Shown here: positions 6,001 through 37,668 of the stretch, in pieces
Layout: each line of letters starts with the position of its first letter
Numbering within the stretch: the stretch's first letter is position 1
Source of the DNA: Candidatus Thorarchaeota archaeon
GTDB lineage: Archaea > Asgardarchaeota > Thorarchaeia > Thorarchaeales > Thorarchaeaceae
Length of the DNA stretch: 37,668 nt
Assembly: GCA_016839445.1 (NCBI GenBank)
Contig: JAEOUG010000065.1
Location: 1-37,668, forward strand
Direction of reading: 5' to 3'
Made by a program: the position numbers and the translations under genes
Notes under the pieces: generated by a model
What the model saw: the letters and a program-made list of their open reading frames with translations, nothing else
Databases searched by the model: none
Told to the model about the DNA's origin: nothing

Positions 6001-9000
6001 GTGAACCCAAGGCTAGCCCATGATGCGGACCCAACAGATCCCGAGTCTGTTACGTCGTTTCCTTGGATGTAGATCTTGTTGTTAGAGGGTGTGCTGGAGT
6101 CAAGGACACAAGCAAAGTGATACCAGCCGGGGTTCCAAGAGTTGATTGTTGTCCACTTGTACATCGGATCACCGGGCCCACTCTCCACCTTGAAGACAAG
6201 TGTACCATTCGGAACAGATTGACTATAGTCCCCACCGACCAGAGCGATGTGCATGTCATAGTCGCCGCTGATGTACTTCTCCATTATGAGATAGGAGGTC
6301 GGCGACGAGGTTGAGAAGGAAGTGGCGAGCCTGAACCATCCAGATATCACCAAGTCACCATCTGGGTTCAGTGTGTCAGGAGCGAGAATCTGATCATTGA
6401 CACCGTCAAACTCCTGTCCAAAACCTGCCCTACCTGCGGCCTCCACGTTCCCGTATTGAACTGCATCATATTCGTTTCCGGAGGAGTCATAGTGTATGGC
6501 ACCAGAGGCTTCGTTCACGACGTCTTCGCCCAAGTGATAGACGGCCTCGTATCCGTTAGCCGACCAGATTGCCTCGGGATTCTCAAGGTTGTCTACGACA
6601 TCACTACCGTAGTACATTGTGATCGTGTTGACTTGACCATCGGTAAGGTTGGCTAGGACCCATGCAACAATCCGCGCTTCGGTTAACGTGTAGTCCTGAT
6701 TGAAGTACTCAATCTCATGAGGCAAAATGCCACTACCCATTGCGAACATGATATCTGAGCCGTCAGATCGTACCTTGGCAGAGTTGTGCAGATCAGTATC
6801 GGTGAAGTCCACCAACACCGGGAAGTTCTCTAGATCATCAAGTACCAGCGCGTCTGGTATTGTCAGAGTCTTGTGATACCTGAAGGCAGGGAACTTGTGA
6901 CTTGGATTGGTAGAGGTCGTGTTTGAACTCTGATACCAGATGGACCCCGTGGGGTCGGTCAGAGTGAAGCCCACAGATGCACCGAAGTACGTAGGAGTTG
7001 TTGCGAGGAACTTCATCTCGTCCCCAATGTTGAACGTGGCAGTGTCACCCAGAGCTTGCCCTGATATCCCCATTTGCAGATTCTCGACGTAGTTCTTGCT
7101 GATGAACTTGACAGTCCACATGCCCCAGAAGTCAATCGATGACCTGTTTATCGTGAGGTAGCCGCCACTGTACCACCAGTCTGTTCCAAGAGATTTGGGC
7201 TGGTTGTAGGGATTCAGCACTGCAGTGGGCTTCCACTCCGCCAAGGGATACTCAACGGTGAAGCCCATGTTGGTAACGCCTTCAGGAGGTGAAACCATCA
7301 CCTTGCCAGTCCAGTTGACGATGGTACTTCCGCTCTCGATGTAGAAGTCAGTGCCTGGATTGAAGTCGCCATCAAGAGTCTGGCCGATGCCTCCTATGTC
7401 CATGGTCACAATGACGTCCATGGTGACTGGGGAGAGTGAACTAGTAGTGAACGAAAGGCTTGTAGTACCTGCATCAGCCCAGGAGTCCACGGCGTCCCTC
7501 TGGGGGCTCACTGAATAGAAGCTTGAGGGATCATTCTGGTTGTTGTACTCAGTGTCAAACCATGATTCAGAGCGCACTAAAGGCGTAAGTCGGACTTCAT
7601 CTATCCTGCCGGCCCAGTAACGGGCATTCAGCAGGTCGTTGTTTCCTATGACGAACATGGCATCGGAATTGTAGATGGATGTACCACTAAACGCCTGATT
7701 GATTACAAGGACTCCGTCAAGATACGCCATGATTGAGCCTCTGGAGGCACTCCAAGACCATGCAATGTGATGCCAAGTGAAGTTTGAGGCGGATGCGACA
7801 CTCGTGTAGCTTCCGCCGGCGCCATTAGGGTCAGTCCAGAGCCTGGTGCACACATGATTGTAGGGATCCATTCGCATAGTCATGATGTGGTATGCAGGAT
7901 CTGTCGATGTCGATTTTGAGAATATCCTGGCATCCTTGTCCTCAGTGCGATAGACCCACGCACTCATAGTGAAGTCGGTCCAGTCATTTGTGTAGATTTG
8001 CCCAACAGAGATCAGGTCATTCGAGCCATCGAAATCCGTTGCATTACCTATCCTTCCAAAGACGAGATCTGAGGAGTCCATTCCTCCATAGGATGTACCG
8101 TCGTGGTTGTTGGACGTACTGTCATACAGGATGGAAGAGGGATCTTCATTCATGTGTTGCACAACCTCATAGTCGCTCCACACTTCGGTAGATGCGAGTG
8201 AATTCGCATATTGACTGCCATAACTCATTGTAATGGTAGTGTCCACAGAACCAGAGAGATCAGGAACCTTGACCCATGCCACGAGGTGTGAGTGCGTTCC
8301 ATTGCCTTTGAAATCGAACATCTCGATTTCGTGGTATAGTGGCTCGCCATCAATCATGAAGAGAATGTCAGATCCATCCGTCTGGACTTGCTCTCTCAGA
8401 TCCGAATCCCAAATATCAACTAGAACTGGAAAGTCGGTGAGGTCTGCCGCTACCTTTGTGTGGTCTATGATTATATCCTTCTCGAATTCGTAGAAGTTGA
8501 TGGTGTCCTCTGGTAGGGGAACCATGTATTCCACAAAGAGACGTGCAAGGTCCGCCCCATCATAACCAGCAGAGCCCTTGATGTTGACCCACCGCTGGTA
8601 GTAGTCAGCATTCGACAGATCAGCCATGAGGCAGATGTAGTTGCCCGCGTTCCAATTGTCACGGCTCACAACATTCTGAAGCAAGCCAGCGATTTCAGGA
8701 GACCTATATCGCGTGTCTGGAGACGTTATCCAGGAGTTGAGGGCCCAATTCACACTTGTCGGCACCCAACTGAAACGGTCTTCTAGAACTGGTAGGCCGG
8801 CAGTGAACGCTGAAACGTCGTCTTCGTCTGCAACGTAGAGGCGCATGGCATAGAGGCGAGTCCCCGATGCACCCTGTGCTTCCATCTCGACCCATGCACT
8901 AGTTATGATTGCGCCCTGAGGTATGTCAACAGGAAACTGAAGTCCAAGCTGGAAGAGACCATCTGTGTACCATCCACTCGAGGAGTACATCCCCACTTCA

Positions 9001-10073
9001 ATGGCGCCATCGTTGCTGTATCCATCTAAATCGATTCCAGCGCCGCTCGTCTGATCGTAGCAATCTCTGTTCGCATCGTCAGGAACGTATGGATAGATGC
9101 TGTAGGATTCAGACCCCACGATAGCAGTGCCGTTTGCCCTTAGGTCAATCTGCTCGGGGAATGGTCGAACAGTGAAGTCGACCACTATATCGTCGACTCT
9201 ACCATAGACGCTATTTGCTGACGAGGTTCCCGTCAGGTCTGTGGCAATTCCAATCTTGAATTGGGTCACATGCTCGTCGAGGTTCTCCATGGAAGAAGCG
9301 GGGATAGAGATGGAAGCACTCAGCCAGGTGTTCTGCGTGTCCCCGGACTCAAAGACGTGGAACTTGTAGTAGTAGCCGCCAATCTCAACGAAGAGATGCA
9401 ACTGGTCGTTCATGGACGTAGCTGATACTCTGTACATGAATGAGATATCGGCGGAGTAAACCTCTCTCCAAGGAAGTGACACCATCTGAGAGATGTAAAT
9501 CTCATCACCAGCAGCGTGTGACCAGCTAGAGCTATAGCTTGCATAGAAAAGCGCGCTCCGTCCGGAATACCCGGTGGAGTCGCTGTCAGCCTCGTAGACG
9601 CCATGAATTGGGTGTGGATTGTCAGATGGCACGTCCTTGATGATTGTCCAGCCATCCGGAACATCTACTGTGTCGTCGTTTTCAGAGGTGGAACCAGTAA
9701 CGACGAACTTCTCACTGTGGTAACTGTTGAGATTACCGTTGTCAAGCACATCCTCCATTGTGACACTAAGACCCTGGAGTTCCGCGGCAAGGTTCGTTCC
9801 AGTCCAGCCGTCCGTGAGTGTGACCGAACTTATGCCCGGAGTGCTCGAATCGAAGGTGAGAGTCCCATCATCAGAGAGAATCGTACCGTCCCTGACGACT
9901 CTCAGCGCAGGCCCCGTTCCAGTGCTGGGGTCACCAGCCTTTGCATAGGATTCGTATCCCTGCGGAAGCGGGGGAAGCCCCTCAGTTAGCAGACTAGGAT
10001 CTGCTTCCGGAAGAGCCACTGGCATTAGAAAGACGATAATGAATAGGACGGCTATCGGAACACTCTTTCGCAT
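1..10073 (-). CDS. Giant secreted/surface protein (>3,350 aa, 3' end outside window): signal peptide, DNRLRE-like domain, 2x DUF2341+LamG-like modules, many Ig-like beta-sandwich repeats
   Basis: Manual translation from ATG at 10073 (GAGGAGGA RBS at 10081-10088) gives MRKSVPIAVLFIIVFLMPVALP. The frame was open in every stretch I translated and is still open at position 3 (DVTIIAGFYDYDPASHSFK). Motifs: GLQFPVDIPQGAIITSAWV (~8950); KDIIIDHTKVAADLTDFPVLV...DGSDILF...AWVKVP and WHHIAWSW...GRIDEVR (8490-7530); second copy LENFPVLVDFTD...GRLDEIRIS (6890-5850). Confidence 0.9.
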   Translation of the reverse strand, partial: MRKSVPIAVLFIIVFLMPVALPEADPSLLTEGLPPLPQGYESYAKAGDPSTGTGPALRVVRDGTILSDDGTLTFDSSTPGISSVTLTDGWTGTNLAAELQGLSVTMEDVLDNGNLNSYHSEKFVVTGSTSENDDTVDVPDGWTIIKDVPSDNPHPIHGVYEADSDSTGYSGRSALFYASYSSSWSHAAGDEIYISQMVSLPWREVYSADISFMYRVSATSMNDQLHLFVEIGGYYYKFHVFESGDTQNTWLSASISIPASSMENLDEHVTQFKIGIATDLTGTSSANSVYGRVDDIVVDFTVRPFPEQIDLRANGTAIVGSESYSIYPYVPDDANRDCYDQTSGAGIDLDGYSNDGAIEVGMYSSSGWYTDGLFQLGLQFPVDIPQGAIITSAWVEMEAQGASGTRLYAMRLYVADEDDVSAFTAGLPVLEDRFSWVPTSVNWALNSWITSPDTRYRSPEIAGLLQNVVSRDNWNAGNYICLMADLSNADYYQRWVNIKGSAGYDGADLARLFVEYMVPLPEDTINFYEFEKDIIIDHTKVAADLTDFPVLVDIWDSDLREQVQTDGSDILFMIDGEPLYHEIEMFDFKGNGTHSHLVAWVKVPDLSGSVDTTITMSYGSQYANSLASTEVWSDYEVVQHMNEDPSSILYDSTSNNHDGTSYGGMDSSDLVFGRIGNATDFDGSNDLISVGQIYTNDWTDFTMSAWVYRTEDKDARIFSKSTSTDPAYHIMTMRMDPYNHVCTRLWTDPNGAGGSYTSVASASNFTWHHIAWSWSASRGSIMAYLDGVLVINQAFSGTSIYNSDAMFVIGNNDLLNARYWAGRIDEVRLTPLVRSESWFDTEYNNQNDPSSFYSVSPQRDAVDSWADAGTTSLSFTTSSLSPVTMDVIVTMDIGGIGQTLDGDFNPGTDFYIESGSTIVNWTGKVMVSPPEGVTNMGFTVEYPLAEWKPTAVLNPYNQPKSLGTDWWYSGGYLTINRSSIDFWGMWTVKFISKNYVENLQMGISGQALGDTATFNIGDEMKFLATTPTYFGASVGFTLTDPTGSIWYQSSNTTSTNPSHKFPAFRYHKTLTIPDALVLDDLENFPVLVDFTDTDLHNSAKVRSDGSDIMFAMGSGILPHEIEYFNQDYTLTEARIVAWVLANLTDGQVNTITMYYGSDVVDNLENPEAIWSANGYEAVYHLGEDVVNEASGAIHYDSSGNEYDAVQYGNVEAAGRAGFGQEFDGVNDQILAPDTLNPDGDLVISGWFRLATSFSTSSPTSYLIMEKYISGDYDMHIALVGGDYSQSVPNGTLVFKVESGPGDPMYKWTTINSWNPGWYHFACVLDSSTPSNNKIYIQGNDVTDSGSVGSASWASLGFTADWGIGGGDADDQFPGSTGWFPGRLDEIRISTESGRSAGWYRTEYYNQADADTFAAPGSEVQATSPDHSVETTALSSAPAGLWTVTAHYNDSGTFVTNKTGLFERTFIVKHDSALTLNKPTDAIGDRITVKNAGDSVILEYQLRDSITSSGVTGATVTINWTTPSTITLDDYGSGRYGAVLDTNDLGDAKRWRVEVDSTHTYYNDATEHFWIDLFHETDLDYTDASTTPVGQDFTATLEFTDAYTGSPIEGATITFGDDSPVNVVSEGGGLYYISIDTASLSIGDHVFTLKATKSADYMNTATVDITVVIREHYTAISVSGAMTIPYGDNVPLHVVLLDLDTGTIVDIGDVASFNFTSSEGQEIKSFLFTYDMTLTTNTWDIGVYTVTLRVTISSTDYYQPDDYQFDVTIRAHRTSVNVIGVVTQPYGNTTPITVVITDLDTGGTVAYTDVISLTFTWPPSGSQVESSLSSLNVILDTSTWGVNSYTVTLVVDLDSTVYQDPSNHQFVVTIRSMDVMMYHDPASLYFAIGVDFTIDLRLNVSEQGPNYGNPVIGRSSGEFSVAGYAIAIDTTEQAIGRYGLTIDTSYFTGGYYQITVVFTSSSSIYDGATIVIRFRYTEIATFLSSPNFPQVTTPYNLNLEIILNYTEAYSSAGIDSATITSPDHPSWIINTTNIGGGLYSVWIDVTGFAKGTYYITLRASKANHESKELEFRIVVREAYTSAVPSVGSLSIPIGNSPTFLVDFTDLDRLVPIDNTTTPYTQVVSDWGNFSVVYLPGSQQYQITFHTSLSDTISQNQVYYFTFSKGTNYKTATFTITVTIRTHSTDFRLVSSIEPVSTIGTFVISVYYGDLDSAVGIRSGQVDLYVHNASGLVVSTFTYDDGTGDGFYLIYVDADQFGLGLQSFTVYADWTGVVAIYQDKSFVTTANVIGRESALTLLVASDPTAYGEGMSYVFFFSDSGVGITNLTGDVFVYVAFPTESVDLGLVTIGDLSATQPGNYSISFNTNIFDRIGNIYMNVYVNWSKGVAPFYSNRTDTITVRVLSRETLLSISPPSATSWNETAQFTFTWEDLVAGPGTYIGDDPNLIIEMSVAFTYSETGGTFTIYIDTSQFVSLGAKAMTFSVKWDGVPFYANRTGRTVYLTVLARQTSLEYLAPAPTQYLDEVVFNVTWTDVTGGSSVGITGASLELFLGATPVDGGKYSWMEVAPGVYEVTLNTTFVASPGTYALRVEMSRGLFYILDVSATRNFNVRQRITLLSSEPISRIPHNASMEVILYYQDLFTSMDISNESAEGYPVTFEIVTPGTWYYTIEWKPTFGYYVLTVETWNQGYNVNIFYTMQLRMSYDTISPFYASDDLIIEFRFRQRESTLSIDTSSETTPYGFDATFVLQYTDDDDGDAGIDGATIYLEYNSNPLTLGVDYTLTPSAGGFYSIQLETDILSGLGTHIIFVQASWSGVPYYVSASVDVTVNLRERETTLEITVPPSQTKYLDNVVFTFVYTDLDSDAPITSITQANVLLYFTNGTQIVGGYTVTPSGSAYVVTIPSTLITSSPQTGLELELVVDWDGGTSPYYSDHSTTIRFSVVKRTMFVEPDQIERTPKGDILTITITVTDVDTDAPVSGAIIVFSCRNDTLTLGESYWLAEALGVYTITVDTNWLSSGTGTYLFNITVKWNPVLSPFYANKTMITLNGLVDQIWTSLQAGAPQPATAQISQVVWLLVTFTDLDHAQIGVTAATINVRYTADESVPIGYTFVAVTGSPGVYNLSFSTSDRTVGSHQIRITALRSGYATASLTTSFGVVLISTSLNAVESVLTLNWTTDAHVLINFIDDLHGSPLSGGSITWQSGAFGGSIGEIGSTGSYEAYIDTTALGAGTRVLIITATKDNHVPSTTTVTLVIISLPSEMVAIEPTEAVKTIGRGSELPIKVYLNDTFNNDAILQSQVIPGEIYIRFRGSQVPLLYNSTSGYWEGVLPGAWTRIDPASYDVTIIAGFYDYDPASHSFK

Positions 10074-10252
10074 CTGGTTGTCCTCCTCAGGTCGACCACC
10101 TGATTTCCATACTACACAGTATGTTGTTCGGAGTATCCACTCTCGACTGGCCTTCCAACGCGGACACACATAAGAAGTAATTCGCGACAGACTACTTCTG
10201 TTGAGAAAGAAGACCTTCGATTTTTCGAAGTTGTGTCGCGTAGCCCCTCGAA

Positions 10253-24474: not shown

Positions 24475-25590
24475 ATGCCAGAAGCAACCTTTGTAGTCCA
24501 ACTTGATGACCTGCATGGCTTCGTAGTGAAGCATCGCCATCCCGCGAAACTCACACTGAATGAGAGGATTCTCAATCTGCTCTTCTATGAGCAGCAGAAA
24601 GCGACTCGTGAAGAGGTGAGCTACGCGGAGATAGAGGGGTTGAAATTCATCACCTACAGCTCTCCCGCATATCCTGGAATGATGGTATGCTCCATTCTCG
24701 GCCCTGACGAAACCGTGGCGGACGTTCGCAACGAAGTGTCAGGTTCCGGCAGATTGATTCTGGCCCTCATGGCCGATGATCCTGAGGCTGTAGACTTGGC
24801 CGAGATCCTCAAGAGTGGTAAGACACTCTCGGGGCTAACGGACGAGCAGAGATTCGCAGAGATCTTCTTGACACCATCATCCGCTCTTCTTCTCGAGAGG
24901 ATGCAAACAGAGGGCGTTGAGAAGTCAGCCAAGCTCTCAATCTGGTTGAAGAGCCAAACACAGAGCGACGAAGTGGACATCCGTGAGGCTATGGACCCTC
25001 TAATGAAATCAGGCGTAGTAAGGGTCGAGATGGTTGGGAAGACAGCGGAAACAGTATTCCTAGTGAAAGACCTCTTCGGATTCAGAGAACCTCCCGTCGA
25101 GTCTGTGGCAAAGGCAATAGAGATGATGCCATCAATGGCGCAGAAGTATCGCAGCTTCGTGGCCGAGTTCTTCTCTCCACCACCTCCGAACAAGGGCTAC
25201 AATCCGACGATTCCTGTGTATGACCCCAACTCCCCCATATTGGAGGACCGAGAGCACATCTCAAAGCTACTCTCAGACAGGCTTCACTTCATGGTTCTGG
25301 ACTGCCTCAGGGAGCAACCACTCACTGCGGCCCAGATCTCAGAGAAGACCGCCCTTCCAGAGGCGGCTGTCATGAAAGTCCTCTGGTCACTGGAATCAGA
25401 GAAGGTCGCGGTCAGATTCGAGGAAGAGGATGTCTGGGCCCTCCTGACGAACCCAAGAATCCAGGCGTTCATGCCCGAGTATCTATTGCCTATAGTTGCG
25501 AAGAAGCTATCAGAGAAAGAGATTTCACCGGAGGCTGCTCGCCGACATATCCAACTCCTAATAGAGAACTGGGGTGAACAGAGTGATTAG
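24475..25590 (+). CDS. Putative longin/uDENN-like domain + two winged-helix domains
   Basis: N-terminal FVVQLDDLHGFVVKHRHP beta-hairpin pattern; WH-like segments DIREAMDPLMKSGVVRVE and LDCLREQPLTAAQISEKTALPEAAVMKVLWSLESEKV. The CDS is secure; the fold call is inference. Confidence 0.6.
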   Translation: MPEATFVVQLDDLHGFVVKHRHPAKLTLNERILNLLFYEQQKATREEVSYAEIEGLKFITYSSPAYPGMMVCSILGPDETVADVRNEVSGSGRLILALMADDPEAVDLAEILKSGKTLSGLTDEQRFAEIFLTPSSALLLERMQTEGVEKSAKLSIWLKSQTQSDEVDIREAMDPLMKSGVVRVEMVGKTAETVFLVKDLFGFREPPVESVAKAIEMMPSMAQKYRSFVAEFFSPPPPNKGYNPTIPVYDPNSPILEDREHISKLLSDRLHFMVLDCLREQPLTAAQISEKTALPEAAVMKVLWSLESEKVAVRFEEEDVWALLTNPRIQAFMPEYLLPIVAKKLSEKEISPEAARRHIQLLIENWGEQSD

Positions 25591-26434
25591 AAGCGTCTAT
25601 GTTCTCGGCGAACAAGGGAACATGATATACTCCAAGGACTATGCCAAGAGTGAGCACAAGGATAGCCTAGTGGAGTTCCTCGTGAACCTTTCACAGTTCC
25701 TCAGGACAGTTGACCTTGAGGAGAAGACCGAGCATATGAGCGCCGCAGTTTCAAGGATATTCTACACCAAACGAAATCCGTTCACCTTCATGTTCGTGGC
25801 CGACAAGGCAGACGACGCCACACAGATAGACGAAAAGATGGGACAGATGGTTGACTTCTTCATGAAGGACTACGCCAACCTGGCCCTCGCGAACCAACCT
25901 CTTGATGGCTTCGACGAGAAGGTCGACGAGATTGCTGTCACCATGGTCAAAGTGGCAATCCTTGGCTTCGCAGGCGTTGGCAAGACAACCACCCTCCACC
26001 TCCTCCGTGGAGAGACCCTACCACTCGTACACGACCCGACGATAGGCGTTTCAATCAAGAAGTTGCCTGAGGAAGTTGAGAACGCCAACATCGTGCTCTG
26101 GGACCTAGCAGGGCAGAGCCGCTTCAGCATACTGTGGGCCAAGATGATAGCCAATGCGCAAGTAGTCATCATCGTCACAGATAGTACTCTGGAGAATGTT
26201 CTCCGTAGCAAGAAACTAGTGACGCTTGTCAAGGAGGAAGTCCCTGATGCGAAGGTCATTGGCATTGCGAACAAACAGGACCTTCCAACGGCGCTCACGC
26301 CAGAGCGAGTGGGCCAGATTCTCGGCATCCCAACCTACGAGCTTGTCGCCATCGATATCTCATACAGGGACCGCCTGATTTCAATCATCAGGAGAGCCAT
26401 TCTTGAGGGCAAGGCTGAGGCAAAGGCAGCCTAG
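25574..26434 (+). CDS. Longin-domain fused small GTPase (Arf-related)
   Basis: N-terminal IRSVYVLGEQGNMIYSKDY (sigma-adaptin/longin-like); G1 GFAGVGKT, G2 PTIG, G3 WDLAGQ, G4 ANKQDLP; overlaps the upstream stop (start 25574 or 25583). Confidence 0.85.
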   Translation: MNRVIRSVYVLGEQGNMIYSKDYAKSEHKDSLVEFLVNLSQFLRTVDLEEKTEHMSAAVSRIFYTKRNPFTFMFVADKADDATQIDEKMGQMVDFFMKDYANLALANQPLDGFDEKVDEIAVTMVKVAILGFAGVGKTTTLHLLRGETLPLVHDPTIGVSIKKLPEEVENANIVLWDLAGQSRFSILWAKMIANAQVVIIVTDSTLENVLRSKKLVTLVKEEVPDAKVIGIANKQDLPTALTPERVGQILGIPTYELVAIDISYRDRLISIIRRAILEGKAEAKAA

Positions 26435-31176: not shown

Positions 31177-31914
31177 TCACTTGATGAGGTGAAAGTAGAT
31201 GCGTCTCTTTCCAGCCCCGACGTTCTTGGACTTGCCGATTGCCAGCTCGCCAATCTCACTTGTATTCTTCACATGTGTCCCCGCACACGACGCCGCATCG
31301 TAGTCCCCAATCAGAAGGACACGGAAGCTCGTTACAGAGGATGGTACCATCTCAAGATACCTTGTTGGGTAGCCCCTGGTCTTCAGGTACTCTATGGCCT
31401 CATTTCGTTCCATGAACTCGATGGAAACCTCGAGATTCTCAGCAAGCTTCTCATTCACGCCCGCTTCGACCTTGCGCTTCATCTCATCATCGAAGGACTC
31501 AAGCGGAGAGTAATCCGCACGGCTCTCCCCGGGCTTGATCATGTTTCCCACTGTTTCTATTCCATAGTGGATACTCAAGTATCGAGAGAGCACATGTTGG
31601 GCGGTATGGAATCTCATGCACTCGTATCTGTGGTCCCAATCAATGACTCCGTGCACTTCTGCTCCAACCTCGACTGCAGGACCACTATAGAAGTGACGGA
31701 CCTCACCATCTTCCTTCCTGACCTCTGTGATGCTCAGGTTTCTCTCCCCAAGTGAGATAGTCCCCGTATCGCTTGACTGACCCCCTCCCAGTGGGTAGAA
31801 TGCAGTCCGATCGAGCACAACATACCCTTCACCAGACGCAATGACCTTTGCATCGAATTCCCTCAGGTAGTTGTCCTTCATGTGCAGTAGCTCAGTCACG
31901 GGACACATCCCCAA
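31177..31914 (-). CDS. alaXM: Alanyl-tRNA editing protein AlaX-M
   Basis: TAFYPLGGGQSSDTG, HTAQH and CAGTH Zn ligands; probable start at GTG (VTELL) near 31899. Confidence 0.9.
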   Translation of the reverse strand: MGMCPVTELLHMKDNYLREFDAKVIASGEGYVVLDRTAFYPLGGGQSSDTGTISLGERNLSITEVRKEDGEVRHFYSGPAVEVGAEVHGVIDWDHRYECMRFHTAQHVLSRYLSIHYGIETVGNMIKPGESRADYSPLESFDDEMKRKVEAGVNEKLAENLEVSIEFMERNEAIEYLKTRGYPTRYLEMVPSSVTSFRVLLIGDYDAASCAGTHVKNTSEIGELAIGKSKNVGAGKRRIYFHLIK

Positions 31915-32523: not shown

Positions 32524-33327
32524 GTGAGTTCCGTGACTGATGATAGACGAATCTTGGAAGAACTAGCGGCTGGCAAGATCACAATAGAAGAAGCAGAGAG
32601 GCGACTAAGACTTACATCAGTTGTGACGCTTGAGGGACTGGCAACACTAGATGCAAACCGTGATGCAAGAAGCGGAGTCCCGGAGGTCGTGATGGCGGAA
32701 ACGAAGACCTCGCAGGAAATCGAAAGAATAATCGCCAAGATGCTGGAGAGTCAAGGTTTCGCTCTTCTCACACGGATGGATGAACAGAAGCTCAAGCACA
32801 TCGAGTCATCCTTCAGAAGTACGAATGTTGTCCGATACGGACGTGAGCCACTGATGACAGTCCTCGTTCACAGTGAGGATTGGACTCCCAAGAAGACTGG
32901 TGCTAAGATTGCGCTTGTCACAGCAGGCACATCTGACATCCCTTATGCCGAAGAGGCGAAGGCAATTGCCTATGTGATGGGAGTGGATGCACTGGCATTC
33001 TATGATGTCGGCGTGGCAGGAATTCATAGACTCATTCAACCACTGAAGCAGATCTTGGAAAACGACGTGGAGGCCGTCGTCGTCTTCGCGGGGATGGAAG
33101 GAGCGCTCCCCACTGTAGTTGCTGCACTGGTGGATATTCCAGTCATCGGAGTTCCAGTCCCAGTTGGATATGGGCATGGTGGGGACGGCGAAACTGCGCT
33201 TGCGTCAATGCTGCAGTCATGTGCACCTGGACTCGCCGTTGTCAACATCGGCAACGGCTTTGGTGGCGGTGCAATGGCATCCATCATTGCGCTCCGAACA
33301 GCAAGAAACCGGCGTCGTCAAGACTAG
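32524..33327 (+). CDS. larB: LarB-family (NCAIR mutase/PurE-related) carboxylase
   Basis: RSGVPEVV, TAGTSDIPYAEEA, DVGVAGIHRL, AGMEGALP, VGYG, LQSCAPGLAVVNIGNGFGG. Confidence 0.9.
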   Translation: MSSVTDDRRILEELAAGKITIEEAERRLRLTSVVTLEGLATLDANRDARSGVPEVVMAETKTSQEIERIIAKMLESQGFALLTRMDEQKLKHIESSFRSTNVVRYGREPLMTVLVHSEDWTPKKTGAKIALVTAGTSDIPYAEEAKAIAYVMGVDALAFYDVGVAGIHRLIQPLKQILENDVEAVVVFAGMEGALPTVVAALVDIPVIGVPVPVGYGHGGDGETALASMLQSCAPGLAVVNIGNGFGGGAMASIIALRTARNRRRQD

Positions 33328-34451
33328 CCCGAGAAGTGGTCTGCGATTCTGCTGTATACTCCCACGGAGGAAAGGAGTTCATCGATCCGGATGAACTCGT
33401 CCGGCTGATGTGCTTGCTCAATAGAGCCGGGTCCGCATATGACATGAAGAATCCCAACCTTGGGCTGCAGCACTGAGCAGTCTGTCCCATAAGTGGCAGC
33501 ACCAAGATTCCGCCTCTCTCCTGTTGCCGATTCGACCGCATCCCAGGCTATATCCACAATCTCAGCTTCCGTGGGAGTACGCACCGCGGGCTTCCCGTGA
33601 ATGTACTCAACACGGGCACTATCGGCGAAGCCTTCTGCTTGAAGTCGTTGATTCATTATCTTCAGTATGCTCTCGGGAGTCTGGCCCTTCACGATTCTCA
33701 TGTCAAGGGTGGCCTCGCATCTATCAGGTACAACATTGACTTTGATGCCGCCGGAGATCTCTCCGATGCTCAAGGTAGGTGTTCCAAGAAGGGAATCCTC
33801 TTCGTGAGGATAGGGAACCCCTGTCAGGACTCTTATTGCATCCATGCAGATCTGTATGGCATTGACGCCTTCCTCAGGCCTAGAGCCATGTGCAGACTTG
33901 CCCTTGGCAGTCACTCTCGACCAGAACAGGCCCTTCTCACCAACGAGAACATTGAGACTAGTAGGTTCAGCGCAAACGCCGAACTTGATTCCTGTAAGCA
34001 AGCCGCTCTTGGCTACCTCTTCGGCTCCCGAGCAACCACTCTCTTCGTCCGATGTGGCTAGCATGACGAGCGGCTTCTCGTGCTTCGTCTCTGTGTACAG
34101 AATCAGGGTCTCGGCAAGAGCGGCAAGGGGACCCTTCATGTCGCAGGCTCCACGTCCATACAGGCGGCCATTGACAATCTCTGGCTCAAACGGTCGATAC
34201 GTCCAGTTCTCCAAAGGCCCGGCTGGGACTGTGTCCATATGCCCGTGAACGACAAGATCACCGACTTCTCCATCATGGCTTGAAAAGATGAGATTAGGCC
34301 GCTCTTTCGGCCCGACAGAAACGCAAGAGATGCCGTGAGACTCCAGATGGTCTCGTAGTACCTGAGCAACCTCCATCTCACGCCCAGGCGGATTCTCAGA
34401 CTTCGTGGAGATCAGTTCCTTGGTGAGCCTCAAGACCCTTGCTTCGTCCAA
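33324..34451 (-). CDS. M20 family metallopeptidase/deacylase (ArgE/DapE-like)
   Basis: HGHMDTVP, GRGACDMKG, SDEESG, AEPT, AHQPDE. Confidence 0.9.
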   Translation of the reverse strand: MDEARVLRLTKELISTKSENPPGREMEVAQVLRDHLESHGISCVSVGPKERPNLIFSSHDGEVGDLVVHGHMDTVPAGPLENWTYRPFEPEIVNGRLYGRGACDMKGPLAALAETLILYTETKHEKPLVMLATSDEESGCSGAEEVAKSGLLTGIKFGVCAEPTSLNVLVGEKGLFWSRVTAKGKSAHGSRPEEGVNAIQICMDAIRVLTGVPYPHEEDSLLGTPTLSIGEISGGIKVNVVPDRCEATLDMRIVKGQTPESILKIMNQRLQAEGFADSARVEYIHGKPAVRTPTEAEIVDIAWDAVESATGERRNLGAATYGTDCSVLQPKVGILHVICGPGSIEQAHQPDEFIRIDELLSSVGVYSRIADHFSG

Positions 34452-34685: not shown

Positions 34686-34800
34686 CTAATGCTTCTGCGT
34701 GTAGAAGAAATCGGGTTGGGCTGAGGCCTGTGCCATCCGGGGCAGGGGTCACGGGGGAGAGAGATCTTAGGACACCCATTCGTGCGCATAGACGAATGCG

Positions 34801-34971
34801 CTAAAGCTCATCTCGTTCGAACACGAGTTCTTTCTTCTTCAGGATAACTCCAAACCTCTGCCCTGCGTCATCAACCAAGGAAACATCCTCATCTTGAAGG
34901 AAACTCCGGACCCTCTTCCTTAGGCTCCTTGAAGGGATATCTCCCATGCGAATGACGTAGGCCTCAGCCAT
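34801..34971 (-). CDS. Small hypothetical protein (56 aa), below the ORF-track cutoff
   Basis: MAEAYVIRMGDIPSRSLRKRVRSFLQDEDVSLVDDAGQRFGVILKKKELVFERDEL*; GGAG 9 nt upstream; TATAAATA at 35086-35079; hairpin CATTCGT/ACGAATG just after the stop. Confidence 0.6.
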   Translation of the reverse strand: MAEAYVIRMGDIPSRSLRKRVRSFLQDEDVSLVDDAGQRFGVILKKKELVFERDEL

Positions 34972-35078
34972 TGTAGGGAACTCCGACGGATGCTGTGATG
35001 ACGCGGCAGTCTAGAGGGATGCAAGACTACCTCTGAGGTGCAAACACCTCGTTGGCATGAGTGTAGAGACCTCCCAAC

Positions 35079-35275: not shown

Positions 35276-36769
35276 CTAGGGGTTGTAAGCGAATGGATGC
35301 CTTGCCGAGTCCTTTCTTGAGAGGATCTCCTCAGTCGACTGGCGTCCTTCGATGGCTCGCCTCAGAGCATGTCGTACTGCGATGAAGTTGTTGATGTGCA
35401 CACGCTTCGGGTTTGCCGCACTTGGGTGGACGAACACATTGACTGCAAGAATGAGATCACGAACGAGCTCTTCTGGTATGATTCGGTCTGTAATCGTTCG
35501 TCGCACTGCATCAACGACTGCTTTCTGAGCAACATCATACACCATTCTCCGATGGTCTTCCGATGTTATCGTCACAGTGGGAGCGAACACCGTTGTGAGT
35601 TCCAGGTCCTTGATTTTGGTCGATGAGTGGAAGTTCTCCGAGATCTTCCCTGCGTGCTTGACAGCTTCCTTCATTGGACCGTCCCGCAGGCCCATAACAA
35701 GATCAACGTGGGCAACCTCAGTTCCTCCGCCAAAGAGTGATTCACCATGAAGTAAGGTGAGGTCAGACACTGTATCTGGAACCTGCCCCACAGCTCTCGG
35801 ATAGTCCTCCGCGACAATCGAGCGATTGCCCATCCTGAATGTGACAGGCCCACGCTGGATCATTTGTAGGTCCTCCAGGCAAATGCGAATCTCATCAATG
35901 TCCCCGTAGCCGAGAGAGTCGCCCTCCTGGAGGGGCTTCCGAGCGTTGCCAACAGGAACTCCAAGCATGTTCAGAGCTGCCTTGACAGCCAGCCCGCCGC
36001 CACGATTGACGAAAATGCGAACGATTCTCTGGATGCTTCTCTGGGCGATGCGAGCCCCTTTGAGGTCACCCTCCTCCAGCAGAGTCATCATCCGAATGTA
36101 GCGATCCGGAAATACGTTTGCGCTAGCCAGAATAGCTCCATCGCAACCTGACGCCAAAGCTGGCAGAGCAACCTCGTCGTGTCCAACCACTACTTGGAAC
36201 TCGTCAGGCTTCCTCACAAGAATGGTCGTGAGATTGATCAAGTCGCCGCTCGAGTCCTTCATGCCTGCGATGCCATCAATCTCTCTGAGGCCATCCACGA
36301 GGGTCCAGTGAAGTGGAACCCCTGTGACCTGAGGAATGTTGTACAGGAATATGGGAATCTCTGAACTCCCTGCCACCTTCTCGAAGTGCTCATAGATCTC
36401 CTTCGCTGAGGGCTTCAGGAAGTAAGGGGTCACTACCAGTGCAGCAGAGGCACCTAGCTCGGCAGCTCTACGGGTCAGCTTGATGACGTCTCCCGTGTAT
36501 GCAGCGCCAGTGCCCGCCATGACAGGAACACGCCCCTTGGCTGCTTCGCAGGCAATCCTGATGGCCTCAACCTTCTCCTCGAAGCGCATGCTCGTGAACT
36601 CCCCGGTCGTGCCGCAAGGCACTATACCGGTGGCTCCCGCCTTGATAGTGTAGTCAATGAGATTACGATACTGCTTTTCGTTGACGCCGCCCTCAGTGAA
36701 AGGAGTAACGAGAGCAGGGTACACACCTTTGAATCTGAAATCACCGTCGTACACTGTCTTCACCCCCAC
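35276..36769 (-). CDS. DapA/NAL-family class I aldolase fused to formaldehyde-activating enzyme (Fae)-like domain
   Basis: GVYPALVTPF, GTTGEF, LYNIP, GMKDSSGD (Schiff-base Lys); C-terminus GESLFGGGTEVAHVDLVMG...VNVFVHPSA...ARHPF matches Fae. Likely start is GTG 36754. Confidence 0.85.
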   Translation of the reverse strand: MGVKTVYDGDFRFKGVYPALVTPFTEGGVNEKQYRNLIDYTIKAGATGIVPCGTTGEFTSMRFEEKVEAIRIACEAAKGRVPVMAGTGAAYTGDVIKLTRRAAELGASAALVVTPYFLKPSAKEIYEHFEKVAGSSEIPIFLYNIPQVTGVPLHWTLVDGLREIDGIAGMKDSSGDLINLTTILVRKPDEFQVVVGHDEVALPALASGCDGAILASANVFPDRYIRMMTLLEEGDLKGARIAQRSIQRIVRIFVNRGGGLAVKAALNMLGVPVGNARKPLQEGDSLGYGDIDEIRICLEDLQMIQRGPVTFRMGNRSIVAEDYPRAVGQVPDTVSDLTLLHGESLFGGGTEVAHVDLVMGLRDGPMKEAVKHAGKISENFHSSTKIKDLELTTVFAPTVTITSEDHRRMVYDVAQKAVVDAVRRTITDRIIPEELVRDLILAVNVFVHPSAANPKRVHINNFIAVRHALRRAIEGRQSTEEILSRKDSARHPFAYNP

Positions 36770-37668
36770 ACATCTGCAAGAGCAGCTTCCACGGCCTCCT
36801 GCGTAGCCTCCGTCATTCGCCGCCTGTTGCGGGAGTTCAGGTTAATGTCCAGCGCCATGATTATGACCTGCTCGTCCTGCTCCGATTTGGGAATCAAGCC
36901 CCTTTCCAGATACGCAGCCACAGCCTTAGCCGCTCCTGACTGAACCGGCCCGTAGAATAATGAAGCCTGCCTCATGGACTTGATTGTCCGGATAGGAAAC
37001 ATGAGGCTGCTTGGTCGTACCGCGAGATTAGGCTCTAGAATGACACTGAGTGCCTCATGTCCAACTCTGGGTGTTGTGAGAAGCCTGACGAACGCGAAGC
37101 CGAGTGACTCTGATTTCTTGCCGACAACCAAGGCAACTGAAACAACTTCATTGGAGCTGGATCCTGTACGCAACTCGGACATGTCGGCTTTGACTCCTTG
37201 GTCTGAAAGAGCGCTCATCATGTCGATTTCGGTTTCTAGTGGAGCTGAAGACTTGGGCTTCACGAGTCCAATCTTCTCGAGCTCGACCCGAATCTCATCC
37301 TTGAGTTCTGGCGTCAGTGTGCCTCCAGTGTCAAGAGGCATCCTGCTCTTCCCGCCTTTGATACCGAGCATCTTCAAGGCTGCCTTCACTGGAGGAGCTC
37401 CGCCATTTCGAGTGACAATCCTAGCAAGGGTCTGCACTGATAGCTGAAGCTCCGCTGCTCGCTTCATGTCACCGGCCCTAACCTTCTCCATGATCTCAAG
37501 CCAGATGTGTGGTATCACGTTGCCAGAGGCAAGAATCGCAGCCTTGGCTCCCGCTGCGACAGCAGAGAGGAAGCACTCGTCATGTCCTATGATCACAGGA
37601 ATCTTACCTTCGAGCTTCTGAATCAGCTCGACCGTGTGTCCTATGTTGCCGCTGCTATCCTTGATTCC
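36760..37668 (-). CDS. Second DapA-family aldolase-Fae fusion (5' end outside window)
   Basis: Frame open to the window end: GIKDSSGNIGH...IIGHDE; C-terminus GHEALSVILEPNLAVRP...FYGPVQSGAAKAV is Fae-like. Confidence 0.8.
   Translation of the reverse strand, partial: GIKDSSGNIGHTVELIQKLEGKIPVIIGHDECFLSAVAAGAKAAILASGNVIPHIWLEIMEKVRAGDMKRAAELQLSVQTLARIVTRNGGAPPVKAALKMLGIKGGKSRMPLDTGGTLTPELKDEIRVELEKIGLVKPKSSAPLETEIDMMSALSDQGVKADMSELRTGSSSNEVVSVALVVGKKSESLGFAFVRLLTTPRVGHEALSVILEPNLAVRPSSLMFPIRTIKSMRQASLFYGPVQSGAAKAVAAYLERGLIPKSEQDEQVIIMALDINLNSRNRRRMTEATQEAVEAALADVWG

What the first reader, a model, noticed from the sequence alone, without database searches (positions are those of the whole stretch)
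35276..37668. Tandem DapA-aldolase/Fae fusions: candidate new formaldehyde-coupled aldolase system
Seen: two adjacent, overlapping genes each join a DapA/NAL-family barrel with an intact KDSSG lysine to a C-terminal Fae-like domain. In the fully visible gene the DHDPS substrate-binding Arg (E. coli YNVPSRTG) is replaced (YNIPQVTG), arguing against ordinary lysine-pathway DapA. Established: Fae condenses formaldehyde with H4MPT, and methanogens fuse it to hexulose-6-phosphate synthase (Fae-Hps), coupling a formaldehyde-releasing aldol cleavage to C1 capture; DapA-family enzymes are pyruvate aldolases. Inference: this may be an analogous fusion that cleaves or forms a pyruvate-formaldehyde adduct such as 4-hydroxy-2-oxobutanoate and channels the C1 unit to or from methylene-H4MPT. 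I do not know of a characterised DapA-Fae fusion.
Basis: partly seen in the sequence, partly recalled or inferred. Interest (0 to 1): 0.88.

Follow-up and report, generated by a model that had tools for sequence, protein, structure and literature searches.

The report
Split aldolase–Fae enzyme pair in Thorarchaeota
Two neighbouring archaeal genes each join a pyruvate-type aldolase to a formaldehyde-activating domain; databases name them as the lysine-pathway enzyme DapA, which they almost certainly are not, and they probably work together as one enzyme linking a small aldehyde to one-carbon metabolism.

Summary
Gene A (35276-36769, minus strand) and the contig-truncated gene B (36760-37668, minus strand) are both DHDPS/NAL-family barrels fused to Fae domains.

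**Not lysine DapA.**
- Arg138 is missing.
- No dapB was found.
- One relative carries a separate dapA-dapB pair beside its fusion.

**Wider family.**
- The pair descends from an old tandem duplication of a single-copy aldolase-Fae fusion.
- That fusion is common in Asgard genomes and in proteins labelled Bathyarchaeota, where sources call it 4-hydroxy-tetrahydrodipicolinate synthase.
- My paper searches found no mention of the fusion.

**Complementary decay.**
- A keeps the Fae His/Asp and C-terminal arm but lost the central loops.
- B keeps the loops but lost the His/Asp and the arm.
- A also has Tyr107 replaced by Phe; B keeps it.
- A complex prediction places the retained parts face to face, so I infer an A/B heteromer.

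**Context.**
- Thorarchaeota lack Hps, so these are their only Fae domains.
- Fae presence tracks Mch by family.
- The fusion is genomically tied to an uncharacterised TIM-barrel family resembling class II aldolases.
- In Fae-less lineages that family sits with aminotransferases, homoserine dehydrogenase and an aldehyde oxidoreductase.

**Function.** A formaldehyde/H4MPT-coupled 2-oxoacid aldolase is the best reading. 4-hydroxy-2-oxobutanoate is a candidate substrate. None of this is proven.

The parts
35276..36769 (-). Gene A (A-type paralogue), 497 aa: class I aldolase barrel (DHDPS/NAL family) plus Fae-like domain
   Evidence: Lys161 (KDSSG), Tyr133 and GTTGE kept; Arg138 replaced by Val; Tyr107 replaced by Phe.
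35924..36733 (-). Aldolase (PF00701) domain of gene A
   Evidence: 243.7 bits, profile 2-273; residues 13-282.
35291..35746 (-). Fae-like domain of gene A: keeps the His/Asp motif (AHVDL, His354/Asp356) and the C-terminal arm (ARHPF); lost the central PN and GP loops
   Evidence: 97.5 bits. TIGR03126 scores 105.8, below its cut-off of 118.
36760..37668 (-). Gene B (B-type paralogue), 3' 302 codons; the 5' part is on contig C68
   Evidence: Full-length relatives are 465-477 aa.
36775..37155 (-). Fae-like domain of gene B: lost His/Asp and the C-terminal arm; keeps the central ILEPNL..P and FYGPVQ loops
   Evidence: 104.5 bits, profile 9-135.
34801..34971 (-). Conserved 56-aa ORF just downstream of gene A; function unknown, link to the pair unproven
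   Evidence: tblastn finds it in 34 of 49 Thorarchaeota loci. No Pfam hit. Contigs of three RNA libraries cover 34718-35025.
33324..34451 (-). ArgE/DapE-family M20 deacylase; conserved downstream neighbour, functional link uncertain
   Evidence: TIGR01910 230 bits. Its cluster is present in 39 of 50 Thorarchaeota loci. A homologue lies near the fusion in family f12.

Best explanation
Genes B and A encode the two subunits of one heteromeric enzyme. It belongs to a widespread, uncharacterised archaeal family in which a class I (Schiff-base lysine) 2-oxoacid aldolase of the DHDPS/NAL superfamily is fused to a formaldehyde-activating (Fae) domain.

Shown: the domains; the retained and lost residues; the distribution; the ancient duplication.

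Inferred:
(1) The aldolase domain binds pyruvate or a close 2-oxoacid through Lys161, and makes or breaks a C-C bond to a small aldehyde, most likely formaldehyde.
(2) The Fae part exchanges that C1 unit with tetrahydromethanopterin (methylene-H4MPT), as in Fae-Hps.
(3) In this lineage, after duplication, the A-to-B Fae interface kept a complete site (His/Asp and C-terminal arm from A, central loops from B) while the B-to-A interface decayed.
(4) Across the aldolase dimer, B supplies Tyr107 to A's active site.
(5) The candidate reaction is 4-hydroxy-2-oxobutanoate <-> pyruvate + formaldehyde (-> methylene-H4MPT), connected to homoserine/aspartate-semialdehyde metabolism. The direction is unknown.

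It is not the lysine-pathway DapA.
For: **Domains.**

**Not DapA.**
- The Arg138 position holds no Arg in any group: 0 of 23 single-copy fusions, 0 of 46 A and 0 of 40 B. Of the 20 plain DapAs in the tree set, 14 matched my YN.P..[TS] search and 13 of those have Arg there; the other 6 did not match the search.
- dapB was not found in the own genome, nor in G075 (a 98%-complete Thorarchaeota genome) or the closed genomes G023 and G012.
- G147 has dapB next to a stand-alone DapA and also carries the fusion.
- Fusion aldolase domains form one clade apart from plain DapA (SH-aLRT 100, branch 0.83; quick tree).

**Catalytic core kept.** Lys161 in 23/23, 45/46 and 40/40; Tyr133 in all.

**Fae part of single-copy forms is complete.**
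- 194-217 bits against the TIGR03126 cut-off of 118.
- His22, Asp24, the PN and GP loops and the C-arm are each kept in 23/23.

**Complementary decay.**
- A: His 46/46, Asp 46/46, C-arm 45/46; PN deleted in 46/46.
- B: His 0/40, Asp 0/40, C-arm 0/40; PN 40/40, GP 40/40.
- Tyr107: Phe in 45/46 A, Tyr in 37/40 B.
- The same split appears in pairs of families f8 and f21 and in metagenome pairs.

**Complex prediction of the two Fae parts.**
- ipSAE 0.91, best of 3 controls 0.15. That mark was reached by 58 of 80 solved complexes and 2 of 110 mismatched pairs.
- The three runs agree in at least 90% of contacts, and partner pLDDT is 90.
- The interface is A 336-345, 354, 356-358 and 467-495 against B 185-220 and 235-255, which are exactly the retained segments.

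**Only Fae in the lineage.**
- Two Fae hits in the own genome.
- Hps scores above its cut-off in 0 of 31 Thorarchaeota genomes.
- Fae and Mch have nearly the same family distribution.

**Partner family.**
- A 315-aa or 428-aa TIM-barrel protein lies next to the fusion in 14 and 20 loci.
- The 315-aa form was found, one weak f19 hit aside, only in fusion-bearing families.
- In Fae-less families the 428-aa form sits in an operon with two aminotransferases, homoserine dehydrogenase and AOR.
Against: - No biochemical data exist; the substrate is inferred.
- All groups carry G-x-D-E where DapA has G-D-D. This aligns with NanA's GYDE. By my recollection that motif binds sugar hydroxyls in sialic acid lyases, which hints at a larger hydroxylated aldehyde rather than formaldehyde.
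- Homoserine dehydrogenase coexists with the fusion in f9 (11/25), f16, f18 and f8, so the fusion is not a simple replacement for it.
- The 428-aa partner also occurs in lineages without Fae or H4MPT, and in Thorarchaeota it is not adjacent to the pair.
- The complex pass may reflect likeness to the solved Fae homopentamer (1y5y), and it does not exclude homomers.
- An odd-numbered Fae ring cannot alternate A and B strictly.
- The A and B Fae parts both score below the TIGR03126 cut-off, so Fae activity may have changed or been lost.
- Which Fae subunit supplies which residue to the H4MPT site, and the cross-dimer role of Tyr107, come from my memory of the literature, not from a call.
Confidence: 0.5

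Rival explanations
1. They are genuine 4-hydroxy-tetrahydrodipicolinate synthases (lysine/DAP pathway) carrying an accessory or regulatory C-terminal domain, as the public annotations say.
For: TIGR00674 dapA scores 227 bits (A) and 226-247 bits (relatives), above its cut-off of 206. The best PDB matches are DHDPS entries. Sources name the family this way.
Against: No Arg138 in 0 of 109 fusion sequences examined. No dapB in the own genome or in 3 of 4 fusion-bearing genomes checked. G147 has a separate dapA-dapB pair. The fusions form a clade apart from plain DapA. GxDE replaces GDD.
Confidence: 0.03
2. The aldolase acts on a larger, hydroxylated aldehyde (sialic-acid-lyase-like or keto-deoxy sugar acid chemistry). 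The Fae part is not a formaldehyde handler here but a scaffold, a pterin-binding or regulatory module, or a scavenger unrelated to the aldol step.
For: GxDE motif aligned with NanA's GYDE in all 109 fusion sequences. Second-best NCBIfam hits are HpaI-like and NanA models. Fae is a ring-forming oligomer in the solved structure (recalled).
Against: NanA and KDG-aldolase models score far below their cut-offs. Single-copy forms keep every Fae position tested in 23/23, which a mere scaffold need not do. In Thorarchaeota, which lack Hps, Fae is kept only in this fusion, and Fae tracks Mch.
Confidence: 0.2
3. It is an H4MPT-dependent hydroxymethyltransferase that adds the methylene group of methylene-H4MPT to a 2-oxoacid other than pyruvate. 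This would be a functional analogue of ketopantoate hydroxymethyltransferase, or a step in cofactor synthesis.
For: The chemistry is compatible with an enamine on Lys161 (inference). In Thorarchaeota the 428-aa partner sits beside an ECF-type vitamin-transporter S component in 4 of 4 genomes examined. A CitG-like gene lies near the fusion in f12.
Against: A normal PanB is present in the own genome at 383 bits. Nothing in the contexts points to pantoate or to a defined cofactor pathway.
Confidence: 0.12
4. In this lineage the pair is decaying: one or both Fae parts (and B's or A's aldolase site) are inactive relics, and the two proteins do not need each other.
For: Both Fae parts fall below the TIGR03126 cut-off. 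Each has lost conserved segments.
Against: The pair is kept in 47 of 50 Thorarchaeota loci. The A/B split is shared with f8, f21 and metagenome pairs. What each copy retains is 90-100% conserved and complementary. The predicted interface is made of the retained segments. Mean pairwise identity of the Fae parts is still 0.72 (A) and 0.60 (B).
Confidence: 0.1

Closest known systems
Fae-Hps (bifunctional formaldehyde-activating enzyme / 3-hexulose-6-phosphate synthase of methanogens and other archaea; NF009833)
   Same: An Fae domain fused to an aldolase-type enzyme that releases or uses formaldehyde. It is found in H4MPT-containing archaea, and many Asgard genomes carry both kinds of fusion.
   Different: Here Fae is C-terminal, and the partner is a Schiff-base 2-oxoacid aldolase (PF00701), not the OMP-decarboxylase-fold Hps. 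NF009833 matches only through the Fae part (79-81 bits against a cut-off of 274). Thorarchaeota have no Hps.
DapA / DHDPS (4-hydroxy-tetrahydrodipicolinate synthase)
   Same: Fold, Lys161, Tyr133, the GTTGE motif, and an HMM score above the curated cut-off.
   Different: No Arg138; Tyr107 replaced by Phe in A; GxDE instead of GDD; no dapB partner; a separate clade; an added Fae domain.
N-acetylneuraminate lyase (NanA) subfamily
   Same: The same superfamily, with a G-x-D-E motif aligned to NanA's GYDE.
   Different: NanA models score 150-183 bits against cut-offs of 281-382. No sialic acid genes are nearby.
Fae of Methylorubrum extorquens (PDB 1y5y/1y60)
   Same: Single-copy fusions keep all tested positions. 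Gene A keeps His/Asp and the C-terminal arm; gene B keeps the central loops.
   Different: Neither A nor B alone has the full set, and each is fused to an aldolase. The solved enzyme is a homopentamer (recalled).
Ketopantoate hydroxymethyltransferase PanB and class II 4-hydroxy-2-oxobutanoate-forming aldolases (functional analogues; recalled, not tested)
   Same: They join a C1 unit (methylene-pterin or formaldehyde) to a 2-oxoacid.
   Different: Unrelated folds and metal-dependent mechanisms. PanB is separately present in this genome.

Membership tests
DHDPS/NAL superfamily (PF00701) | HMM match above the gathering score | tested here: met
   A scores 242 bits; the B fragment scores 60.6 bits, against a cut-off of 22.1. 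Full-length B relatives score 255-259 bits.
DHDPS/NAL superfamily (PF00701) | Schiff-base lysine (E. coli Lys161) with Tyr133 and the GxTGE pyruvate-carboxylate loop | tested here: met
   Lys in 45/46 A, 40/40 B and 23/23 single-copy. Tyr133 in all. Thr45 is in all rows; Thr44 is Thr in most and Ser in a few.
DapA (true DHDPS, EC 4.3.3.7) | Arg138, which binds the carboxylate of aspartate semialdehyde (role recalled) | tested here: not met
   Val in 44/46 A (Ala in 2); Cys in 40/40 B; Cys/Leu/Val/Thr in 23 single-copy fusions. Arg in 13 of the 14 plain DapAs that matched the YN.P..[TS] search; the other 6 of 20 did not match it.
DapA (true DHDPS, EC 4.3.3.7) | Tyr107 of the catalytic triad, supplied across the tight dimer (role recalled) | tested here: inconclusive
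   Phe in 45/46 A; Tyr in 37/40 B and in 22/23 single-copy.
DapA (true DHDPS, EC 4.3.3.7) | The next pathway enzyme, DapB, is present in the genome | tested here: not met
   No TIGR00036 hit in the own genome (89.8% complete), nor in G075, G023 or G012. It is present in G147, beside a separate DapA.
DapA (true DHDPS, EC 4.3.3.7) | NCBIfam TIGR00674 equivalog score above its cut-off | tested here: met
   227.2 bits against a cut-off of 206.15. This explains the public annotation but conflicts with the residue and context tests.
Fae (PF08714 / TIGR03126) | HMM match | tested here: inconclusive
   The Pfam cut-off is met (94.7 and 102.9 bits against 27). The TIGR03126 cut-off of 118 is not met by A (105.8) or B (97.7). 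Single-copy relatives meet it (194-217 bits).
Fae (PF08714 / TIGR03126) | His22/Asp24 motif (His22 as acid catalyst: recalled) | tested here: inconclusive
   A: 46/46 and 46/46. B: 0/40 and 0/40.
Fae (PF08714 / TIGR03126) | Central loops (..PNL..KP.. and FGPAQ) and the C-terminal arm (..HP..) | tested here: inconclusive
   A lost the loops (PN deleted in 46/46) and keeps the arm (45/46). B keeps the loops (40/40) and lacks the arm (0/40).
Fae-Hps (NF009833) | An Hps (OMP-decarboxylase-fold) domain joined to Fae | tested here: not met
   Only profile positions 4-161 of 392 match, at 79 bits against a cut-off of 274. Hps scores above its cut-off in 0 of 31 Thorarchaeota genomes.
N-acetylneuraminate lyase (TIGR00683 / NF003164) | Equivalog score above the cut-off | tested here: not met
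   150 and 163 bits against cut-offs of 382 and 281.

The most novel reading that the evidence does not exclude
The aldolase-Fae family, with its class II-aldolase-like partner, is a natural enzyme system that joins the methylene group of methylene-H4MPT (Wood-Ljungdahl C1 pool) to pyruvate, giving 4-hydroxy-2-oxobutanoate and hence homoserine, or runs the reverse. This would be a previously unrecognised C1-C3 junction in Asgard and Bathyarchaeia metabolism. It would explain how Thorarchaeota keep threonine synthase while homoserine dehydrogenase was found in only 2 of 21 genomes searched. In Thorarchaeota the enzyme has become an obligate A/B heteromer with split active sites.
Probability: 0.22. 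Interest if true: 0.9.

Novelty: new variant of a known kind. Interest (0 to 1): 0.72.

Why it matters
- Asgard archaea and Bathyarchaeia are abundant sediment lineages whose carbon metabolism is known only from genome annotation.
- The sources that name this family call it lysine-pathway DapA, so metabolic reconstructions both miscount lysine synthesis and overlook a second formaldehyde/H4MPT-linked enzyme.
- If the aldolase really exchanges a C1 unit between a 2-oxoacid and methylene-H4MPT, it is a new entry or exit point of the archaeal Wood-Ljungdahl pathway, and a natural counterpart of engineered formaldehyde-pyruvate aldol routes.
- The tandem pair is also a clean natural example of a duplicated enzyme whose two copies each kept half of two inter-subunit active sites.

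Tried and rejected
- **Ketopantoate idea.** I tested whether the fusion might replace PanB. PanB is present at 383 bits, so I demoted this.
- **Homoserine replacement.** I looked for an anticorrelation with homoserine dehydrogenase. It is rare in Thorarchaeota (2/21; 1/26) and was not found in f12, f13, f21 or f27. It is present with the fusion in f9 (11/25), f16, f18 and f8, so there is no clean pattern. asd_EA was found in 5/21. thrC scored above its cut-off in 18/21, with the own genome just below. thrB scored above its cut-off in 0/21. These results fit either auxotrophy or an alternative route.
- **Local Thorarchaeota synteny** (two Pfam-less 816-aa and 889-aa proteins, M20, LarB-like, AlaX-like, a GlmU-like transferase). 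It is conserved, but these genomes are close kin, so I do not take it as functional evidence.
- **The 428-aa partner.** There was no Pfam or NCBIfam hit, no PDB sequence hit and no usable ESM Atlas hit. The AF2 model (pLDDT 73) is a generic TIM barrel; its weak top Foldseek rows (MTHFR, class II aldolases; E about 3e-3 to 2e-2) are not evidence.
- **The 315-aa partner.** There was no Pfam hit, no NCBIfam hit and no PDB sequence hit. The ESM Atlas points to clusters in which only 23-36% of members carry Peptidase_U32. The model (pLDDT 82.5) matches class II aldolases with Foldseek E down to 1.9e-8 but TM only about 0.45-0.54. The two partner families align at hhalign probability 76%, E 2.2e-5, over 115 columns; an earlier script run on looser alignments gave 9.7%.
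- **Other neighbours.** The Bathyarchaeia-type neighbours are TrmI and membrane proteins, and I judged them unrelated.
- **RNA.** All four runs laid were contigs. Contigs of RNA libraries X15, X18 and X20 cover 34718-35025, and X15 also covers 37351-37519. None cover gene A. Contigs cannot show absence or strand, so I make no claim about expression of A or B.
- **Tree.** The careful tree search did not finish in 300 s. The quick tree (SH-aLRT only, midpoint root) is what I cite.
- **Papers.** I saw only listings, and passages of PMC11291895 and PMC8879981. Neither paper mentions the fusion. The Fae structure paper was not in the library, so the roles of His22, Gln88 and the C-terminal arm are recalled. 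Supplements were not opened.
- **Not used.** I made no structure model of the fusion itself. The search of protein representatives and the third homologous-protein run were not used.
Full report
**What is there.**
The last 2.4 kb of the window hold two minus-strand genes.
- Gene A (35276-36769, 497 aa) has a DHDPS/NAL-family barrel (PF00701, 6.5e-72, residues 13-282) and a C-terminal Fae domain (PF08714, 7.4e-27, residues 342-493).
- Gene B (36760-37668) runs off the contig. The visible 302 codons hold the last third of a PF00701 barrel and an Fae domain that matches only profile positions 9-135 of 159.
- The rest of B is on contig C68, whose first 127 bases are identical to the last 127 of the window.
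- The assembly (2.9 Mb, 89.8% complete) has no other Fae hit.
- Close relatives bear the names Thorarchaeota or Promethearchaeota.

**Not a local oddity.**
- Of the 120 best relatives of A, 116 carry both domains. Among those that carry a name, most are called 4-hydroxy-tetrahydrodipicolinate synthase and a few are named for the Fae part.
- The B-then-A tandem is present in 47 of 50 Thorarchaeota loci, the window included.
- A survey of 151 genomes of the phylum found Fae in 102, in three forms:
  - Fae-Hps (open frames of about 400-460 aa, 218-244 bits);
  - a single-copy aldolase-Fae fusion (about 495-527 aa, 168-208 bits; families f9, f12, f13, f16, f18, f27; architecture confirmed);
  - diverged tandem pairs (f1 = Thorarchaeota, plus f8 and f21).
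- The single-copy form is also abundant in proteins labelled Bathyarchaeota/Bathyarchaeia and Atabeyarchaeia.
- A quick maximum-likelihood tree of the aldolase domains (83 rows; the careful search did not finish) shows:
  - all 63 fusion sequences on one side of a long branch (SH-aLRT 100) from 20 plain DapAs;
  - within the fusions, an A-type clade (support 95) and a B-type clade (91), each holding the Thorarchaeota copy plus the matching gene of f8, f21 and metagenome pairs, beside a single-copy clade (81).
- So the duplication is old and shared by several families.

**Not DapA.** The dapA equivalog model scores above its cut-off (227 against 206 bits), which explains the annotation. Four observations contradict it.
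- The position of E. coli Arg138 never holds Arg: Val 44 and Ala 2 of 46 A; Cys 40 of 40 B; Cys 15, Leu 4, Val 3 and Thr 1 of 23 single-copy fusions. Of the 14 plain DapAs that matched my motif search, 13 have Arg there.
- dapB was not found in the own genome, nor in a 98%-complete Thorarchaeota genome or two closed Atabeyarchaeia genomes.
- G147 has dapB directly beside a stand-alone DapA and carries the fusion elsewhere.
- All fusions have G-x-D-E where DapA has G-D-D, which aligns with NanA's GYDE.

The catalytic core of a Schiff-base 2-oxoacid aldolase (Lys161, Tyr133, GTTGE) is conserved throughout.

**Complementary decay.**
- Single-copy fusions keep every Fae position I tested in 23 of 23, and they pass the curated Fae cut-off (194-217 against 118 bits).
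- In the pair the losses are split:

| Feature | A (n=46) | B (n=40) |
|---|---|---|
| His (His22-equivalent) | 46 | 0 |
| Asp (Asp24-equivalent) | 46 | 0 |
| FVHP motif | 46 | His replaced by Asp (39) or Asn (1) |
| C-terminal ..ARHPF arm | 45 | absent in 40 |
| PN loop | deleted in 46 | 40 |
| GP of FGPAQ | lost | 40 |

- The same division holds in the f8, f21 and metagenome pairs, apart from one B-type copy that keeps the His.
- In the aldolase part, Tyr107 is Phe in 45 of 46 A but Tyr in 37 of 40 B.
- By my recollection of the literature, the Fae active site lies between neighbouring subunits and Tyr107 of DHDPS reaches into the partner's site. If so, an A/B heteromer would have one complete Fae site (A-His plus arm against B-loops) and one complete aldolase site (in A).
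- A complex prediction of the two Fae parts passed: ipSAE 0.91, best control 0.15. That mark was reached by 58 of 80 solved complexes and 2 of 110 mismatched pairs. The runs agree in at least 90% of contacts, and partner pLDDT is 90.
- Its interface is made of A 336-345, 354, 356-358 and 467-495, and B 185-220 and 235-255, which are the retained segments.
- A homologous complex (the Fae pentamer) is solved, so the pass may be from memory, and it does not exclude homomers.

**What it may do.**
- Fae and Mch have almost the same family distribution in the phylum.
- Thorarchaeota have no Hps above its cut-off (0 of 31), so the pair holds their only Fae domains. The Fae function is therefore tied to the aldolase.
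- Outside Thorarchaeota the fusion is next to one of two Pfam-less proteins:
  - a 428-aa form, in 20 loci (f9, f27 and Bathyarchaeia-like metagenome contigs);
  - a 315-aa form, in 14 loci (f8, f12, f13, f18, f21 and 2 metagenome contigs).
- The 315-aa form occurs, one weak hit aside, only in fusion-bearing families (29 of 151 genomes).
- The two forms are complementary in distribution and weakly alike (hhalign probability 76%).
- The 315-aa model resembles class II aldolases (Foldseek E 1.9e-8, TM about 0.5).
- The 428-aa form is present in Thorarchaeota too (own genome C157, 777 bits). There it sits beside an ECF S-component in 4 of 4 loci, and within about 2 kb of a ThrC-like/PadR gene in 7 of 17 genomes.
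- The 428-aa form also occurs in Fae-less families. There it heads an operon of aminotransferase, homoserine dehydrogenase, aldehyde:ferredoxin oxidoreductase and a second aminotransferase.
- This places the partner, and by association the fusion, in C4 amino-acid and aldehyde chemistry.
- The GxDE motif and the coexistence with homoserine dehydrogenase in several families argue for caution.

**Novelty.**
- My full-text searches for the fusion found nothing relevant.
- The Atabeyarchaeia paper mentions Fae-Hps only (passages read).
- The kind (Fae fused to a formaldehyde-handling aldolase) is known from Fae-Hps. The partner enzyme, the family and the split pair are new as far as I could see.

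Noticed in passing
window 34801-34971 (-), and 34718-35025: A 56-aa ORF between gene A and the M20 gene is conserved at protein level in 34 of 49 Thorarchaeota loci and has no Pfam hit. Contigs from three metatranscriptome libraries of two studies cover just this stretch.
   Followed up: partly
L065:4252-5556, own genome G000:C157:15835-17100 (L186:9830-11110): A very conserved 428-aa TIM-barrel protein without any family hit. It lies next to the aldolase-Fae fusion in f9, f27 and Bathyarchaeia-like contigs; next to an ECF S-component (and often a ThrC-like/PadR gene) in Thorarchaeota; and at the head of an aminotransferase / homoserine dehydrogenase / AOR / aminotransferase operon in Fae-less Asgard families.
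   Followed up: partly
L064:4424-5359 and relatives (alignment A3): A 315-aa protein without a family hit, found (one weak hit aside) only in fusion-bearing Asgard families and usually adjacent to the fusion. Its AF2 model (pLDDT 82.5) resembles class II metal-dependent aldolases such as YdjI, FBA and tagatose-bisphosphate aldolase.
   Followed up: partly
Thorarchaeota genomes: In the sampled Thorarchaeota genomes, Hps, homoserine dehydrogenase (2 of 21), archaeal Asd (5 of 21) and canonical ThrB (0 of 21 above its cut-off) are mostly not found, while ThrC-family genes are plentiful (18 of 21 above the cut-off). One roughly 495-aa ThrC-like form carries a C-terminal PadR domain.
   Followed up: partly
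window 3-10169 (-): An open frame of at least 3389 codons runs off the window start. Not examined.
   Followed up: no
window 25574-26434 (+): A 286-aa protein with an Arf/Roc/Ras-type small GTPase domain, typical of Asgard archaea.
   Followed up: no
window 37542-37668 and G000:C68:1-127: The assembly breaks inside gene B. The two contig ends share an exact 127-base overlap, so C68 and C25 are adjacent in the genome.
   Followed up: yes
G000:C50:7214-8062 (L005:1486-2412, -): A third DHDPS-family gene in the genome (308 aa, 134.6 bits) with a lysine in a GVKYA motif. It looks like a KdgD-like member, not DapA. Not studied.
   Followed up: no
window 32524-33327 (+) and 31177-31914 (-): A protein with an AIR-carboxylase domain (LarB-like, by my reading) and an AlaX-like tRNA-editing protein follow the M20 gene. 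The order is conserved in Thorarchaeota loci.
   Followed up: no
L068:5194-6174: In family f12 a CitG-like gene (PF01874) and an M20 deacylase homologous to the window's lie just downstream of the single-copy fusion.
   Followed up: no
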